From contig OZ024740.1 in assembly GCA_964016885.1 (NCBI GenBank), positions 238,514,001 to 238,578,000 of the forward strand: a stretch of DNA of 64,000 nt, read 5' to 3'. Under the pieces are notes generated by a model, which did no database searches, was not told where the DNA came from, and saw only the letters and a program-made list of their open reading frames with translations. This DNA comes from Eledone cirrhosa. Its lineage: Eukaryota. The position numbers and the translations under genes were made by a program. Positions 1 through 63,894 of the stretch are shown one piece after another. Each line of letters begins with the position of its first letter. Positions within the stretch are counted from its first letter, which is position 1.

Positions 1-139
1 TGGTTGGTGGTGGTGGTAGTGGTGGTGGTGGTAGTGGTGGTGGTAGTGGTGGTGGTGACATAATGGCAACTGAAATGGTATAAATTAGCACCAATATAAT
101 TAGTAAAGAATTAGATGGTAATACCGTAGTAGATGCAGT

Positions 140-3100
140 GGTGGTGTAAGGGTGGGTGTAGTAGTGGTGTGGTGGTGGTGTAATGGTGGGTGTGGTGGTG
201 GTGTAAGGGTGGGTGTAGTAGTGGTGTGGTGGTGGTGTAAGGGTGGGTGTAGTAGTAGTGTGGTGGTGGTGTAAGGGTGGGTGTAATAGTGGTGTGGTGG
301 TGGTGTAATGGTGGGTGTGGTGGTGGTGTAAGGGTGGGTGTAGTAGTGGTGTAAGGGTGGGTGTAGTGGTGGTGTAAAAGTGGGTGTAGTAGTAGATGCA
401 GTGGTGGTGTAAGGGTGGGTGTAGTAGTGGTGTGGTGGTGGTGTAAGGGTGGGTGTAGTAGTGGTGTGGTGGTGGTGTAAGGGTGGTGTGGTGGTGGTGT
501 AAGGGTGGTGTGGTGGTGTTATAAGGGTGGGTGTAGTAGTGGTGTTGTGGTGGTGTAAGGGTGGGTGTAGTAGTGGTGTGGTGGTGGTGTAAGGGTGGGT
601 GTAGTAGTGGTGTAGGGGTGGTGTAAGGGTGGGTGTAGTAGTGGTGTGGTGGTGGTGTAAGGGTGGGTGTAATAGTGGTGTGGTGGTGGTGTAAGGGTGG
701 ATGTAGTAGTGGTGTGGTGGTGGTGTAAGGGTGGGTGTAGTAGTGGTGTGGTGGTGGTGTAGTAGTGGTGTGGTGGTGGTGTAAGGGTGGGTGTAGTAGT
801 GGTGTGATGGTGGTGTATGGGTGGGTGTAATAGTGGTGTGGTGGTGGTGTAAGAGTGGGTGTAGTAGTGGTGTGGTGGTGGTGTATGGGTGGGTGTAATA
901 GTGGTGTGGTGGTGGTGTAAGGGTGGGTGTAGTAGTGGTGTGGTGGTGGTGTAAGGGTGGGTGTAGTGGTGGTGGTGTAAGGGTGGGTGTAATAGTGGTG
1001 TGGTGGTGGTGTAAGGGTGGGTGTAGTAGTGGTGTGGTGGTGGTGTAAGGGTGGGTGTAATAGTGGTGTGGTGGTGGTGTAAGGGTGGGTTTAGTAGTGG
1101 TGTGGTGGTGGTGTAAGGGTGGGTGTAGTAGTGGTGTAAAGGTGGGTGTAGGGGTGGTGTAAGGGTGGGTGTAGTAGTGGTGTGGTGGTGGTGTAAGGGT
1201 GGGTGTAGTAGTGGTGTAAAGGTGGGTGTAGGGGTGGTGTAAGGGTGGGTGTAGTAGTGGTGTGGTGGTGGTGTAAGGGTGGGTGTAAGGGTGGGTGTAG
1301 TAGTGGTGTGGTGGTGGTGTAAGGGTGGGTGTAGTAGTGGTGTAAAGGTGGGTGTAGGGGTGGTGTAAGGGTGGGTGTAGTAGTGGTGTAAGGGTGGGTG
1401 TAGTAGTGGTGTGGTGTAAGGGTGGGTGTAGTAGTGGTGTAAGGGTGGGTGTAGTAGTGGGGTGGTGGTGGTGTAAGGGTGGGTGTAGTAGTGGTGTGGT
1501 GGTGGTGTAAGAGTGGGTGTAGTAGTGGTGTAAAGGTGGGTGTAGGGGTGGTGTAAGGGTGGGTGTAGTAGTGGTGTGGTGGTGGTGTAAGGGTGGGTGT
1601 AGTAGTGGTGTAAAGGTGGGTGTAGGGGTGGTGTAAGGGTGGGTGTAGTAGTGGTGTGGTGGTGGTGTAAGGGTGGGTGTAGTAGTGGTGTGGTGGTGGT
1701 GTAAGGGTGGGTGTAGTAGTAGTGTGGTGGTGGTGTAAGGGTGGGTGTAATAGTAGTGTGGTGGTGGTGTAAGAGTGGGTGTAGTAGTGGTGTGGTGGTG
1801 GTGTAAGGGTGGGTGTAATAGTAGTGTGGTGGTGGTGTAAGAGTGGGTGTAGTAGTAGTGTGGTGGTGGTGTAAGAGTGGGTGTAGTAGTGGTGTGGTGG
1901 TGGTGTAAGGGTGGGTGTAGTAGTAGTGTGGTGGTGGTGTAAGGGTGGGTGTAGTAGTGGTGTGGTGGTGGTGTAAGGGTGGGTGTAGTAGTGGTGTGGT
2001 GGTGGTGTAAGGGTGGGTGTAGTAGTAGTGTGGTGGTGGTGTAAGGGTGGGTGTAATAGTAGTGGTGTGGTGGTGTAAGAGTGGGTGTAGTAGTGGTGTG
2101 GTGGTGGTGTAAGGGTGGGTGTAGTAGTGGTGTGGTGGTGGTGTAAGGGTGGGTGTAGTAGTGGTGTGGTGGTGGTGTAAGGGTGGGTGTAGTAGTAGTG
2201 TGGTGGTGGTGTAAGGGTGGGTGTAGTAGTGGTGTAAGGGTGGGTGTAGTAGCGGTGTGGTGGTGGTGTAAGGGTGGGTGTAGTAGTGGTGTGGTGGTGG
2301 TGTAAGGGTGGGTGTAGTAGTGGTGTGGTGGTGGTGTAAGGGTGGGTGTAGTAGTGGTGTGGTGGTGGTGTAAGGGTGGGTGTAGTAGTAGTGTGGTGGT
2401 GGTGTAATGGTGGGTGTAGTAGTGGTGTGGTGGTGGTGTAAGGGTGGGTGTAGTAGTAGTGTGGTGGTGGTGTAAGGGTGGGTGTAGTAGTGGTGTAAGG
2501 GTGGGTGTAGTAGCGGTGTGGTGGTGGTGTAAGGGTGGGTGTGGTAGTGGTGTCAGGGTGGGTGTAGTAGTGGTGTGGTGGTGGTTTAAGGGTGGGTGTA
2601 GTAGTGGGGTGGTGGTGGTGTAAGGGTTGGTGTAGTAGTGGTGTGGTGGTGGTGTAAGAGTGGGTGTAGTAGTGGTGTGGTGGTGGTGTAAGGGTTGGTG
2701 TAGTAGTGGTGTGGTGGTGGTGTAAGGGTGGGTGTAGTAGTGGTGTGGTGGTGGTTTAAGGGTGGGTGTAGTAGTGGTGTGGTGGTGGTGTAAGGGTGGG
2801 TGTAGTAGTGGTGTGGTGGTGGTGTAAGGGTGGGTGTAGTAGTAGTGTGGTGGTGGTGTAAGGGTGGGTGTAGTAGTGGTGTGGTGGTGGTGTAAGGGTG
2901 GGTGTAGTAGTAGTGTGGTGGTGGTGTAAGGGTGGGTGTAGTAGCGGTGTGGTGGTGGTGTAAGGGTGGGTGTGGTAGTGGTGTCAGGGTGGGTGTAGTA
3001 GTGGTGTGGTGGTGGTGTAAGGGTGGGTGTGGTAGTGGTGTCAGGGTGGGTGTAGTAGTGGTGTGGTGGTGGTTTAAGGGTGGGTGTAGTAGTGGGGTGG

Positions 3101-4540
3101 TGGTGGTGTAAGGGTTGGTGTAGTAGTGGTGTGGTGGTGGTGTAAGAGTGGGTGTAGTAGTGGTGTGGTGGTGGTGTAAGGGTTGGTGTAGTAGTGGTGT
3201 GGTGGTGGTGTAAGGGTGGGTGTAGTAGTGGTGTGGTGGTGGTTTAAGGGTGGGTGTAGTAGTGGTGTGGTGGTGGTGTAAGGGTGGGTGTAGTAGTGGT
3301 GTGGTGGTGGTGTAAGGGTGGGTGTAGTAGTAGTGTGGTGGTGGTGTAAGGGTGGGTGTAGTAGTGGTGTGGTGGTGGTGTAAGGGTGGGTGTAGTAGTA
3401 GTGTGGTGGTGGTGTAAGGGTGGGTGTAGTAGCGGTGTGGTGGTGGTGTAAGGGTGGGTGTGGTAGTGGTGTCAGGGTGGGTGTAGTAGTGGTGTGGTGG
3501 TGGTTTAAGGGTGGGTGTAGTAGTGGTGTGGTGGTGGTTTAAGGGTGGGTGTAGTAGTGGTGTGGTGGTGGTGTAAGAGTGGGTGTAGTAGTGGTGTGGT
3601 GGTGGTGTAAGGGTTGGTGTAGTAGTGGTGTGGTGGTGGTGTAAGGGTGGGTGTAGTAGTGGTGTGGTGGTGGTGTAAGGGTGGGTGTAGTAGTGGTGTG
3701 GTGGTGGTGTAAGGGTGGGTGTAGTAGTGGTGTGGTGGTGGTGTAAGGGTGGGTGTAGTAGTGGTGTGGTGGTGGTGTAAGGGTGGGTGTAGTAGCGGTG
3801 TGGTGGTGGTGTAAGGGTGGGTGTGGTAGTGGTGTCAGGGTGGGTGTAGTAGTGGTGTGGTGGTGGTTTAAGGGTGGGTGTAGTAGTGGTGTGGTGGTGG
3901 TGTAAGAGTGGGTGTAGTAGTGGTGTGGTGGTGGTGTAAGGGTTGGTGTAGTAGTGGTGTGGTGGTGGTGTAAGGGTGGGTGTAGTAGTGGTGTGGTGGT
4001 GGTGTAAGGGTGGGTGTAGTAGTGGTGTGGTGGTGGTGTAAGGGTGGGTGTAGTAGCGGTGTGGTGGTGGTGTAAGGGTGGGTGTGGTAGTGGTGTCAGG
4101 GTGGGTGTAGTAGTGGTGTGGTGGTGGTTTAAGGGTGGGTGTAGTAGTGGTGTGGTGGTGGTTTAAGGGTGGGTGTAGTAGTGGTGTGGTGGTGGTGTAA
4201 GAGTGGGTGTAGTAGTGGTGTGGTGGTGGTGTAAGGGTTGGTGTAGTAGTGGTGTGGTGGTGGTGTAAGGGTGGTGTGGTGGTGGTGTAAGTGTGGGTGT
4301 AATAATGGTGTGGTGGTGGTGTAAGGGTGGGTGTAGTAGTTTTGTGGTGGTGGTGTAAGGGTGGGTGTAGTAGTTTTGTGGTGGTGGTGTAAGGGTGAGT
4401 GTAGTAGTGGTGTGGTGGTGGTGTAGGGTGGGTGTAGTAGTGGTGTGGTGTTGGTGTAAGGGTGGGTGTAGTAGTGGTGTGGTTGTGGTGTAGTAGTGGT
4501 GTGGTGGTGGGTGTAATAGTGGTGTGGTGGTGTAAGGGTA
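140..4540 (+). repeat. G-rich tandem satellite, 34-bp unit GTAAGGGTGGGTGTAGTAGTGGTGTGGTGGTGGT with 23-bp short variants
   Basis: AAGGG recurs at 34-nt spacing (1941, 1975) and 23-nt spacing (2213, 2236); the + strand has almost no C; fades into (GGT)n at both ends. Confidence 0.95.
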
Positions 4541-59639: not shown

Positions 59640-61140
59640 CTGCAATGATATTTGGAACTGGAGGTGGAGCCAATGCAGGCAGCAACAAACAAACATGGCA
59701 TGTAGACAAGATCAAGAATTGAAGAAGAGACATGAGCTTCCTAACCATGTACAATGAAGGGAAAGAGGGTAGTGGGGGAAGGCATATGAGAGTGAAGACA
59801 TTAGCAACATTTACAGATACATGCATTCTAGAGCATTTCTAGCATACATGCAAACTGAAAAATTAATTATATACAATTGTTGTCTACAATATTCAATCAA
59901 AAACATACATTCACTAGCAATATTTTTATATGAATTTCAGCAATATTTAATTTTCTATGCATGTAAATATTTGAATGTATGTCTGTGTGTACATATGTAT
60001 CATTATCATATATATATGCTTAAGTACTGACCAGTCTATGATGACATGTCTAACCCTTGCTAGCAGGGAATGTGAACATTAAATGAGCAAAAAAACAAAC
60101 TATACACATATACTAGATTGACTGAACCAACAAGAATGTGTGCTTGTACCTATGACACAGTGACAATATATGAACTATTAAGCTTTTTCAATCAGTAGTT
60201 GAATAATCTTTTGACTCTGACACCAGACACAATCTGCTGGTCTGATTGTTAAAAGAAAGGTTTCCTCTTGGTTAAGCACCTGTTCTCTTTTAAATAAAAT
60301 CACTTGATCAACAGGATGGCCCTTCTTATTAATTGTATTTTTATATTCTGACCTATTTTTTTTTATAGGTTTCAATCATTAGACAAGGGATATGCTGGTT
60401 GATCATATTAACCAGAGTACATATTATTTTCATGTCTGGTACTTATGTTATCAATGCTTTTGTTGAACTACTAATAAGCAGGATATAAGCAAACAGTAAA
60501 TATAAACATAGACACAGACATGCATATATATATATATATATGTTCCATGTTCTGGTATGATTTCTATGTTGGATACCCTTCCTAAAGCCAATCACTCTGC
60601 AGAGTGTATTGAGTGCATTTTATCGTGACTAAACACACACACACACATATATATAACTCACAAGATGTTATGCAGTGGAGCTGAACTCGAAACCACATGG
60701 TTGTGAAGTAAATTCTTTAACCATACGGTTATGCCTACACCTTTATTCAAACTTTTAAAAGTTGATATGCCAGTCTTTATGGCAACCTCTATGACAAACA
60801 AGCTAAAAAGCAAAACATTTTCAAACTGGACTCCACAAGCCTAAACTGTCACATCCCACTTTATGGCACATGTGATGTAGTGAACTTGAGCTTTTTCAAC
60901 TATGTATCAATATCATCATCATCGTTTAACGTCTATCTTCCATGCTAGCATGGGTTTAGACGGGAATTGTCCCACGTGAGGCAAGATTAGTTGAATATAT
61001 ACGTATATATATACACATACACAACTACTGACATAATTACAGATATATATATATATAAAAAGTAAACAAAAATAACAAACCAAATGACACAGTACAATGA
61101 TGAAATATATTAGTTTAACGCTTGAAATAATAGGAAAAGA

Positions 61141-61177
61141 GTATTAACATTTCGGACACTCGTCCTTCATCAGAAGA
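61141..61177 (-). ncRNA. Minimal hammerhead-like motif (PLE type), probably degenerate
   Basis: Minus strand CTGATGA-A-GGAC-GAGT-GTCC-GAAA-TGTTA; stem I is weak. Confidence 0.5.
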
Positions 61178-61324
61178 TAGAATTAGAAATAAAAAATGAA
61201 AGAGAAAGAGAGAGAAGAGGAAGGAATGGAAAAGAAAATTGAGAAATAAAACACTCGTGCATATTCAGTCAGTCATATATATATGGAGGAAGTTATAGTT
61301 CACTTGAAGCATTGTGTAATGAGG

Positions 61325-61463
61325 TATAAATGTTTGTATTTGTAAAGCCAAAACAATGCAGGTATGGACATAGAATATAAATGCAAATTCAAAAGATATT
61401 GTTGACAATTAGTCTTTTACTTTAAATTTATTTAAATGTCCTTAATTTTCGAGATAATATCTC
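61325..61463 (-). repeat. Inverted copy of the Penelope 3' terminal repeat
   Basis: Reverse complement of 63756-63894 with few mismatches. Confidence 0.92.
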
Positions 61464-61580
61464 GGCACTACCATGCTATTAGCTGTTAGTCGTGAAAGCA
61501 GGCGAAGGTGACGTCATTCGTCAACCTTCTCAATCGTAAAGCATCGTTTATTTCCGTATTACCACGCCCCCTTTTTTTTA

Positions 61581-62703
61581 ATTAAAGCATATAGATGTAA
61601 GTGGAGTTACTTAAATGAAATTTCTTTATTTTTTTTCACGTGTTTTTTAAAATTTTTTTTTTATTAAAGCATCTAGATGTTACTTAAATGAAATTTTTTA
61701 TTTTTTTTTTATTTTTATTAAAGCATATCGATGTTAGTGGAGTTACTTAAATGAAAATATAGGTGGCCCTTAAAAGAGCCAAATTAGAAAACAAATTTAA
61801 GTTAATTAGAAAACAAGTCATGGTTATCAAATAAATTGGATTTAATCATTTATATTTTCATAGTCATGGTTATCAATGTAGAAAACAAGTCATTTTCACC
61901 AACAGTGGAATTACTTCTGACAGCTAATACCATGAACTTAAATGAATTTTCACCAACAGTGGAGTTACTTCTGACAGCTAATACCATGAACTACATTTTC
62001 ATAGTCATGGTTATCATTTTCACCAACAGTGGAGTTAACTTAAATGAAAACATAGGTGGCCCTTAAAAGGGCCAAATTAGAAAACAAATATATGGCTATC
62101 AAATTTTTTTCACCAACCCTATACATTTATGAAGAAATGTTTAGAAAACAAATTTTTTCACCAACCTTATTCAAAAGCATGGATACAGTCCACATGGAGA
62201 CAAGAGACAGTCCCCATGGAGACAAGAGACAGTCCCCATGGAGATTAATGGTATCTGCTGTAGTAGCGGTAGTGATGGAAAAATGCGTGTATTATTACAA
62301 AGTGAAGATTAAAGTTTATTTATTTACACGTGGTGTTAGTAGGGATTGTCTCCATGGGGACTGTATCTATGCTTTTGAATAGGGTTGGTGAAAAAAATTT
62401 GATAACCATATATTTGTTTTCTAATATAGGTGGCCCTTAAAAGGGCCACCTATATTTTCATTTAAGTTAACTCCACTGTTGGTGAAAATGATAACCATGA
62501 CTATGAAAATATAAATGATTAAATCCAATTTATTTGATAACCATGACTTGTTTTCTAATTAACTTAAATTTGTTTTCTAATTTGGCCCTTTTAAGGGCCA
62601 CCTATATTTTCATTTAAGTAACTCCATTTACATCGATATACTTTAATAAAAAAAAAAAAAAAATTTCATTTAAGTAACTCCACTTACATCGATATGCTTT
62701 AAT
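61581..62703. repeat. ~1.1-kb foldback built from internally repeated modules
   Basis: ATTAAAGCAT..GGAGTTACTTAAATGAAA on the left is mirrored at 62640-62703; arms continue inward to ~62245/62345. Confidence 0.9.
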
Positions 62704-63894
62704 AGAAAAAAGCCACCAGCAGGGACCTGTTTGTACATTTCAGATCGGCCCTCCCAGCCGGTGCTAAGTTTGGATACATAAGGAACGAACTAACACGTAT
62801 CCGGAACAAATGCACCGACGCTAGAGACCAAGACACACACACCACACATTTCCTGGAAGTACTCAAACTGAACGGATACCCGACATCCACCACGAACCGT
62901 GCCAGAACGAACAGAGGACACCACACCCGAGGCACTAACACCTGCTTCCTGAAACTCCCACAGCCATCCGCAGAGCTATCAGATGAGAGGGACTAGATAT
63001 CCAACTAGCCCACTCAGGTCCTTCTCTACGCGGACAGCTAACCAAAAGACACTCCACCAGACATGACAGCCACTGCAGACTAGCCAACTGCCCCATCAAC
63101 GACACAGACCTATGCCACCAGGCTTATGTCATATACAGACTAGAGTGCGACAAATGCAGCAACTTCTACGTAGGTAGCACCACCAGACCACTTCACATAA
63201 GAATAAAAGAACACCTCAATACTAACGCTTCCTCATTTAAGAAACACCTAGTGAAATGCAAAAACACCGACAAAACCATAACAGTTAGGATAGAAACTAA
63301 GGAAAGAAACCTCGGCAATCTTAGAATTAAGGAAGCACTGATTATAGACAAAACACAACCACCAATTAATAATAGACTAGAACTCAACACCCAATTTATA
63401 ACTTGATAGAGCATCTAGCCCCATACTTCAACCCTCCTACCACACGCACGCACACACGCTTACACCTCCACTTATTCTCTCTCACACACACAAAGACCAG
63501 TTCTAACACGAGAGAGCATCTATCCCTCACATTTACGTATAGACATATCTTCTTACACTCACACCTTCACATATTCTCCCACACACTTAAACATACATGT
63601 ACAAAACTCCTTTTAAAGGGAGGCTATTCTTTATCCACCTAACCTTCACTCTTTGACATTAGAGATAGAACAGATACTCTATACCATTTTCTGTCAGCAT
63701 GACTTGGCAAGCTATTTAGAACACTGGTTTAACCGCTTTACTTCCATCTGAAGAAGAGATATTATCTCGAAAATTAAGGACATTTAAATAAATTTAAGGT
63801 AAAAGACTAATTGTCAACAATATCTTTTGCATTTGCATTTATATTCTATGTCCATACCTGCATTGTTTTGGCTTTACAAATACAAACGTTTATA
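62703..63894 (+). mobile_element. 5'-truncated Penelope-like element (RT thumb + GIY-YIG endonuclease + 3' pLTR)
   Basis: DLFVHFRSALP...VLKLNGYP; YVIYRLECDKCSNFYVGSTTRPLHIRIKEH...LRIKEALII..QPPINNR, stop at 63404-63406. Confidence 0.92.
63742..63782 (+). ncRNA. Ultra-minimal hammerhead motif in the Penelope pLTR
   Basis: CTGAAGA-A-GAGAT-ATT-ATCTC-GAAA-ATTA-AGGA; position matches that of known PLE hammerheads. Confidence 0.6.

What the first reader, a model, noticed from the sequence alone, without database searches (positions are those of the whole stretch)
61581..62703. Foldback element carrying four histone-mRNA-type stem-loops with no histone gene
Seen: GGC(C/T)CT-TTTA-AGGGCC-ACC at 61762-61780 (-), 62055-62073 (-), 62429-62450 (-) and 62584-62602 (+), inside a 1.1-kb modular palindrome. 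Known: a GGYYCU-UUUN-AGRRCC-ACC hairpin is the SLBP-bound 3' end of replication-dependent histone mRNAs. Caveat: the 5' flank is not the usual AAA and no clear purine-rich downstream element is visible. Inference: a mobile or virus-like element (e.g. a Maverick-like remnant) mimicking histone 3' ends for poly(A)-independent, S-phase-coupled RNA processing. Three copies are sense to the USO1 pre-mRNA.
Basis: partly seen in the sequence, partly recalled or inferred. Interest (0 to 1): 0.75.

Follow-up and report, generated by a model that had tools for sequence, protein, structure and literature searches.

The report
Merlin transposon carrying stolen histone ending
The four hairpins are copies of the end of a host histone H4 gene, likely picked up once by a family of Merlin jumping genes and spread to about 500 sites, and in this broken copy inside an intron they are likely passengers that the element's mirror-image arms are predicted to mask.

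Summary
The four hairpins are real (0 in 100 shuffles; 2 of 4 reach the Rfam Histone3 cut-off). The element is not Maverick-like. It is a 1.25-kb non-autonomous Merlin DNA transposon in a USO1 intron: two head-to-head left ends, right tip lost. Its relatives have GG termini, 8-bp target duplications and an IS1595-type transposase.

The hairpin is likely captured, not mimicry. A 63-nt block (stem-loop, tail, host-type downstream element) is 94-97% identical to one host H4 gene end, and 505 exact 35-mers lie in the genome.

Against use: the block starts at the stem, so the A at -3 (37 of 37 host histone ends) is T. AATAAA precedes the hairpin in 18 of 19 transposase copies, close sisters lack it, and arm pairing is predicted to mask all four here. 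For use: it sits sense, about 135 nt after the transposase stop, and three diverged Helitron families conserve a canonical hairpin in that position. No RNA data were available.

The family is common beside histone genes; specificity over tubulin genes was not shown. This scan reported the capture, the Helitron hairpin and the giant relatives before, on other DNA of this genome.

The parts
61464..62712 (.). Non-autonomous Merlin foldback element; intact left terminus (5'-GG), right tip missing, so no target duplication at this copy
   Evidence: Left end matches termini of other copies; collinear with the left arm of TSD-flanked transposase copy L034 at 88-93%; right junction occurs once in the genome
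61464..61620 (+).
   Evidence: 89-92% to both ends of L003 and the left end of L034
61719..61780 (-). Captured H4 3' block, copy 1 (stem-loop 61765-61780, tail, downstream element)
   Evidence: 59 of 63 columns identical to the H4 end in L136; Histone3 28.0 bits
62028..62073 (-). Captured H4 3' block, copy 2, shorter (stem-loop 62058-62073, downstream element present)
   Evidence: 46 nt at 95.7% to the H4 end in L068; Histone3 34.5 bits
62247..62368 (-). Inverted scrap of the parent's 5' UTR and transposase N-terminus, showing that the right arm is a second left end
   Evidence: 62281-62368 matches L034:1503-1416 at 93%; 62247-62279 read on the minus strand gives 11 codons matching the N-terminal frame of L018 at 10 of 11 (read)
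62423..62456 (.). 34-nt palindrome, likely from a local inversion; holds copy 3 (stem-loop 62432-62447, minus strand, no downstream element; its ACC is base-paired)
   Evidence: Self-BLAST; flanks printed; Histone3 28.6 bits
62584..62645 (+). Captured H4 3' block, copy 4 (stem-loop 62584-62599), antisense to USO1
   Evidence: 59 of 63 columns identical to the H4 end in L136; Histone3 34.0 bits
62713..63403 (+). Flanking 5'-truncated Penelope-like retroelement remnant (GIY-YIG endonuclease); not part of the Merlin
   Evidence: GIY-YIG PF01541, E 2e-7; the Penelope label rests on recalled knowledge
61325..61463 (-). Inverted copy of the same retroelement's 3' terminal repeat (partner 63756-63894); the Merlin sits at its inner edge
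   Evidence: 139 nt, 98% complementary

Best explanation
This is a broken non-autonomous Merlin DNA transposon whose arms hold a 63-nt block matching a host histone H4 gene end, likely captured once and likely carried as a passenger. Shown: Merlin ends, 8-bp target duplications and transposase in relatives; the match to one H4 end; about 500 genomic copies; frequent insertion next to histone genes; the missing 5' A's. Inferred: an ancestor sat near or was repaired against an H4 locus, a template switch copied the block from the first base of the stem onward (a 13-nt motif shared by hairpin-less sister arms and the H4 end could have guided it), and shuffling of the arm modules put it into both arms. 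Inferred for this copy: two left ends joined head to head, inserted into a Penelope-like remnant in a USO1 intron, then lost its right tip, so it would no longer move. Predicted: in USO1 pre-mRNA the arms pair into long double-stranded RNA that hides all hairpins from SLBP and U7.
For: Family: at least 338 matches; 551 exact terminal 21-mers; DDE_Tnp_IS1595 E 2e-19 in intact ORF L046; exact 8-bp TSDs at L017, L020, L022, L026, L029 and at L034, L037/38, L050. Capture: 59/63 (window) and 62/64 (L046) identity to one H4 end; paralogous H4 genes share the first 36-39 nt and a diverged rest, so the block is native to the H4 family; no Merlin piece in that H4 gene's 10-kb window; genomic contigs X2 and X3 match that H4 locus without differences on both sides of the hairpin. 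Passenger: A at -3 in 37 of 37 host ends, T in the Merlin, 5' flank score -12 against host minimum -1.8; AATAAA upstream of the hairpin in 18 of 19 transposase copies; antisense copies in left arms; sisters L050 and L059 lack it yet have TSDs, L059's with one mismatch; none within 600 nt after the domain in 29 of 30 Pfam-found Merlin loci, the one hit being this family and L109, also of this family, showing it only; no Histone3 hit in 20 of 21 metagenome Merlin loci scanned. Masking: P = 0.00 for all four copies in full-length folds and for the three minus copies in prefix folds.
Against: The block is complete on its 3' side, and its 3' tail plus downstream element scores 14.1, near the host maximum of 15.2. 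It lies sense 95-285 nt (mostly about 135) after the transposase ORF in 19 of 30 transposase loci and folds with P = 0.975 if transcription starts inside the left inner copy. Three Helitron families only 55-60% alike in protein keep a canonical hairpin in the same position, so selection for such an end exists in this genome's transposons. With pairing limited to 150 nt the window hairpins fold at P = 0.97, so kinetic folding could expose them briefly. The tree did not settle whether L050 and L059 never had the block or lost it. The effect of the 5' flank change is taken from one secondary passage (PMC10388802); the primary papers were not held.
Confidence: 0.72

Rival explanations
1. In transposase-bearing parents the captured end works: U7 snRNP cleaves after the hairpin, SLBP binds, and transposase mRNA would be made poly(A)-free and limited to S phase (or stored in eggs), where cut-and-paste gains copies. 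The window's copy would still be a by-product.
For: Full stem-loop, tail and downstream element at host spacing; sense position about 135 nt after the stop in 19 of 30 loci and P(fold) 0.975; parallel conserved hairpin with AAAC/CAAC flank 200-290 nt after the helicase ORF in three Helitron families, no AATAAA in the 300 nt before it in 16 of 17 copies. Copy gain by S-phase transposition is recalled knowledge.
Against: No A at -3 or -2 (90 of 101 non-redundant sites have AATTT, a set that includes 3 host H4 ends), while two 5' adenines are described as part of the minimal wild-type-affinity SLBP site (PMC10388802 passage). AATAAA lies 44-88 nt upstream in 18 of 19. Host stop-to-hairpin distances are 19-67 nt (one H4 at 114 nt), shorter than here. 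Other Merlins lack it.
Confidence: 0.18
2. The block is kept for a DNA-level or positional reason: as part of the transposase-binding arm repeats, or because it would draw the element to histone locus bodies and so to insertion near histone genes.
For: 6 exact termini in 195.5 kb around histone genes against 0.036 expected; family pieces in 6 of 25 histone windows; one copy inserted 18 nt after an H2A stop codon (L245) and one about 60 nt past an H3 hairpin (L129).
Against: Tubulin control also holds 2 insertions in 1 of 20 windows; 8 against 2 insertions gives P = 0.10 and cluster counts P = 0.23 (my hand counts), so a general liking for active genes explains it as well. Hairpin-less sisters transposed.
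Confidence: 0.06
3. The direction was reversed or the likeness is convergent: a Merlin gave its sequence to the L136 H4 gene by recombination, or evolved a look-alike.
For: Sequence just downstream of the block at L136 is also multi-copy and occurs inside a Merlin derivative with hairpin-less ends (L030).
Against: Other H4 genes on two chromosomes share the block's first 36-39 nt and a diverged remainder; an intermediate H4 variant shows in contigs; no Merlin end near L136; 63 nt at 94-97% is far beyond the 16-nt motif.
Confidence: 0.04

Closest known systems
Merlin superfamily DNA transposons (IS1016/IS1595-related), as described in PMC8101967 (passages read)
   Same: 5'-GG termini, 8-bp TSD, DDE_Tnp_IS1595 transposase of about 300 aa, internal tandem and mirrored repeats
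   Different: Arms hold a captured histone H4 3' end ('histone' has 0 occurrences in that paper's main text); this copy is two left ends head to head and lacks its right tip; mirrored arms run about 750 nt, beyond the 24-462 bp TIR range quoted
Metazoan replication-dependent histone mRNA 3' end (Rfam RF00032; SLBP, U7 snRNP)
   Same: 6-bp stem, 4-nt loop of a type also used by host histone genes, 5-nt tail and downstream element identical to host H4 genes
   Different: No histone ORF; 5' flank AATTT instead of A at -3/-2; present in both orientations; predicted masked by arm pairing; no RNA evidence
Gene-fragment-capturing non-autonomous transposons (Pack-MULE type) and Foldback elements with modular arms (recalled, not tested against a library)
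   Same: Host sequence carried in a cut-and-paste element; long modular inverted arms
   Different: Merlin rather than Mutator; the captured piece is an RNA-processing signal and sits in the arms, not between them
Maverick/Polinton elements
   Same: Long inverted repeats
   Different: Parent encodes an IS1595-type transposase and makes 8-bp TSDs; no integrase, polymerase or capsid frame seen in the element

Membership tests
Merlin superfamily | TIRs beginning 5'-GG | tested here: met
   Window left end and other copies
Merlin superfamily | 8- or 9-bp target-site duplication | tested here: met
   Family level: 5 exact and 1 one-mismatch among 14 end pairings listed (several pairings are nested or composite ends); L034, L037/38, L050; 6 of 6 giant units. 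Not testable at the window copy, whose right end is lost
Merlin superfamily | DDE_Tnp_IS1595 transposase in autonomous members | tested here: met
   PF12762 70.4 bits, cut-off 27, in L046; window copy is collinear with the arm of transposase copy L034
Histone mRNA 3' end (RF00032) | 16-nt stem-loop with conserved G2, U6-A11 pair and U at loop positions 1 and 3 | tested here: met
   4 of 4 copies; host-profile score 32.1 within host range 22-33.3; 2 of 4 reach the Rfam cut-off
Histone mRNA 3' end (RF00032) | A-rich 5' flank needed for full SLBP affinity | tested here: not met
   Host A at -3 in 37/37 and at -2 in 34/37; element has T and T; PMC10388802 passage
Histone mRNA 3' end (RF00032) | Downstream element at host spacing | tested here: met
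   3 of 4 copies carry the H4 downstream sequence, core at offset 14
Histone mRNA 3' end (RF00032) | Downstream element pairs with host U7 snRNA | tested here: inconclusive
   No U7 above cut-off; best candidate L121 29.7 bits, E 0.23, pairs poorly with host elements by eye
Histone mRNA 3' end (RF00032) | RNA ends 4-5 nt after the stem without poly(A), SLBP-bound, S-phase regulated | not testable with these tools
   No RNA holder listed; the laid runs behave as genomic DNA
Maverick/Polinton | Retroviral-type integrase, protein-primed polymerase, 6-bp TSD (recalled) | tested here: not met
   Parent has an IS1595-type transposase and 8-bp TSDs; no long frame in the window element

The most novel reading that the evidence does not exclude
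DNA transposons of this octopus-like genome have twice reached the histone mRNA pathway: this Merlin clade by capturing an H4 3' end, and Helitrons by keeping a canonical hairpin across three diverged families. Their transposase messages would end poly(A)-free under SLBP and U7 control and be tied to S phase, and the Merlin's signal might also steer insertions to histone loci. The probability given is for the Merlin end being used; for the Helitron hairpin alone I would put it near 0.5.
Probability: 0.2. Interest if true: 0.85.

Novelty: new variant of a known kind. Interest (0 to 1): 0.45.

Why it matters
If a passenger: it is a clean, traceable case of a DNA transposon spreading a host RNA-processing signal to about 500 sites, roughly ten times the number of real histone ends. 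That inflates Rfam Histone3 annotation and places possible U7 cleavage sites in introns. If used: replication-dependent histone mRNAs are the textbook holders of this 3' end, and a transposase message using it would give a direct mechanism for coupling transposition to replication. I found no such case in the held library; most subscription papers and Repbase were not searchable. The Helitron hairpin is the better test object.

Tried and rejected
RNA evidence: no RNA holder listed. Runs X1-X3 cover intergenic DNA evenly and behave as genomic DNA, X4 is uninformative. Laying X1-X3 on the window showed family modules but no listed contig bridging this copy's junctions, so the copy was neither confirmed nor excluded.
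U7 snRNA: no match above cut-off.
Distant Merlins: no Histone3 hit in 20 of 21 metagenome loci scanned, only about 5 distinct ones with the 3' region covered; no viral relatives. The claim of note e1-9530552 was therefore not reproduced in this small sample.
Polarity within the clade: the DNA tree separates hairpin-less L050 and L059 but is midpoint-rooted; the protein tree was a quick search distorted by frameshifted rows. Unresolved.
Selection among copies: the 16-mer mutates freely (32 of 82 sites altered, no compensatory pair seen), but inserted copies are not expected to be under selection and anchor columns were fixed by my pattern, so this is uninformative.
Histone-specific targeting: not significant against tubulin.
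Merlin-Penelope chimeric family: rejected, the right junction is unique.
Hammerhead-like motifs in the Penelope repeats: no Rfam hit at E 10.
Primary SLBP papers were not held. Supplements were not read; the table of Repbase Merlins in PMC8101967 could bear on novelty.

Full report
Observation. Rfam Histone3 gives 34.5, 34.0, 28.6 and 28.0 bits against a cut-off of 34. The mirrored arms are real. The window lies in a 3.0-Gb genome, which I take to be octopus-like from its size and repeats; that label was not tested. USO1 exons flank the element on the minus strand, so it is intronic.

What the element is. It belongs to a dispersed family: at least 338 matches and 551 exact terminal 21-mers. 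Other copies define the terminus, which in the window lies at 61464. Copies with both ends show 8-bp target duplications, and relatives encode a 300-aa DDE_Tnp_IS1595 transposase. These are the Merlin features given in PMC8101967 (passages). Both arms of the window copy map onto the left arm of transposase copy L034, the right one inverted and reaching into the 5' UTR, so it is two left ends head to head. The right tip is missing and its junction is unique. It sits between an inverted 139-nt terminal repeat and the GIY-YIG-bearing body of a Penelope-like remnant.

Where the hairpin comes from. I retrieved the host histone genes and their 3' ends. The element matches one H4 gene (L068 = L136) over 63-64 nt from the first base of the stem: 59/63 for two window copies and 62/64 for L046. 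H4 paralogues share the first 36-39 nt and a diverged remainder. That makes the block native to the H4 family and the direction histone to transposon likely. An exact 35-mer occurs 505 times. Hairpin-less sisters carry a 13-nt motif that also lies in the H4 end (read), a possible guide for a template switch; this is inference. Further pieces of the same H4 flank lie inside another Merlin derivative.

Is it used? For: stem-loop, tail and downstream element fit the host profile. In 19 of 30 transposase loci (not all independent) the hairpin lies sense within 400 nt of the ORF end, mostly at about 135 nt, and folds with P = 0.975 unless the transcript includes the left inner copy. Against: all 37 distinct host ends have A at -3 and 34 have A at -2, where the element has T and T. 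Two 5' adenines are named as part of the minimal full-affinity SLBP site (PMC10388802, passages). AATAAA lies upstream of the hairpin in 18 of those 19 loci. Left arms carry it antisense. L050 and L059 lack it and have target duplications. The other Merlin families of this genome and 20 metagenome loci show none. In the window copy all four hairpins have pairing probability 0.00 in full-length folds, and 0.97 if pairing is limited to 150 nt. No RNA run was listed.

Neighbourhood of histone genes. Twenty windows around histone genes (195.5 kb) hold 6 exact termini against 0.036 expected; the ends are not independent. With five more windows, family pieces lie in 6 of 25, two of which share one element. 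One copy sits 18 nt after the stop of an H2A gene that has internal stops. A control of 20 tubulin windows holds 2 insertions in 1 window. The difference is not significant (P = 0.10 by insertions, 0.23 by my cluster counts). The family favours such loci, which would give the chance for capture, but histone specificity is not shown.

Helitrons. Following note e1-10325166, I searched for hairpins with a host-type 5' flank: 84 sites, of which I examined the first 30. Nineteen of the 30 are not histone genes and fall into three families; upstream frames are of the Pif1-type helicase kind, and the ends I read look like Helitron ends (label from recalled features). Their proteins are about 55-60% alike, and the best local match between their 3' regions is the 28-56-nt block holding the hairpin. 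This looks like selection, is independent of the Merlin capture, and is why I leave the functional reading open.

Giant relatives. Terminal motifs on chromosomes 1 and 2 come in pairs 22-48 kb apart. I chose six inward-facing pairs; all six have exact 8-bp duplications (one is low-complexity) and share 17-81% of their interior. Earlier notes reported this too.

Literature. Eight searches of the held library found no transposon with a histone 3' end (listings only unless stated). Passages were read in PMC8101967, PMC10388802, PMC13525598, PMC10954484, PMC5368982 and PMC13282606; the last lists two recently active Merlin families in Octopus vulgaris and does not mention histones. No supplements were read.

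Verdict. A real histone H4 3' end riding in a Merlin family, likely a passenger (0.72), possibly used in transposase-bearing parents (0.18), and predicted silent in this copy. I reached the capture reading before consulting earlier notes; several notes on other copies in this genome say the same, which is repetition, not independent support.

Noticed in passing
L164-L174, L179, L180, L188-L193 (e.g. G000:C1:136253188, C2:201418525, C3:53912082): Three diverged Helitron-like families keep a perfect histone stem-loop with canonical AAAC/CAAC 5' flank 200-290 nt after the helicase ORF, separate from the terminal hairpin and mostly without AATAAA. A better candidate for real SLBP/U7 use than the Merlin.
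   Followed up: partly
G000:C1:304002455-304030868, C2:76985483-77016258, C1:155773157-155798793, C1:392475294-392498872, C2:36344526-36369825, C1:52713998-52740475: Giant 23.6-30.8-kb Merlin units with exact 8-bp TSDs and shared cargo of repeats and retroelement pieces; three carry the transposase near the left end.
   Followed up: partly
L245:5950-6620 (G000:C7:7.88 Mb): A hairpin-bearing Merlin inserted 18 nt after an H2A stop codon, with what looks like an older Merlin ORF scrap beside it, pushing the native (mutated) hairpin away and supplying its own in sense orientation.
   Followed up: partly
L129, L130, L135, L137 (G000:C2:321.54-321.57 Mb, C7:93.73 Mb, C2:142.16 Mb): Several Merlin insertions within about 3 kb of histone genes, mostly downstream; some histone pairs are bracketed by outward-facing ends.
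   Followed up: partly
L136:4588-5121 against L030:708-1049 and L135:155-368: Sequence downstream of the donor H4 end is multi-copy and occurs as cargo in a Merlin derivative with hairpin-less ends; contigs show a transposase fragment joined to it.
   Followed up: partly
window 61140-61185 (-) and 63740-63780 (+): Hammerhead-ribozyme-like cores (CTGA..GAAA around a stem) in the Penelope-like terminal repeats; seen by eye, no Rfam hit.
   Followed up: no
L121 (G000:C3:314686447-314686503, -): Weak U7 snRNA candidate (29.7 bits) with an Sm-like site and 3' hairpin; complementarity to host downstream elements is poor.
   Followed up: partly
L125-L144: Host replication-dependent histone genes are dispersed as H3-H4 and H2A-H2B divergent pairs; their downstream element is an AAGT/TTGT core rather than the vertebrate purine-rich type (comparison recalled).
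   Followed up: partly
window 138-4492: A 34-bp G/T-rich satellite of about 132 copies with extreme strand skew.
   Followed up: no
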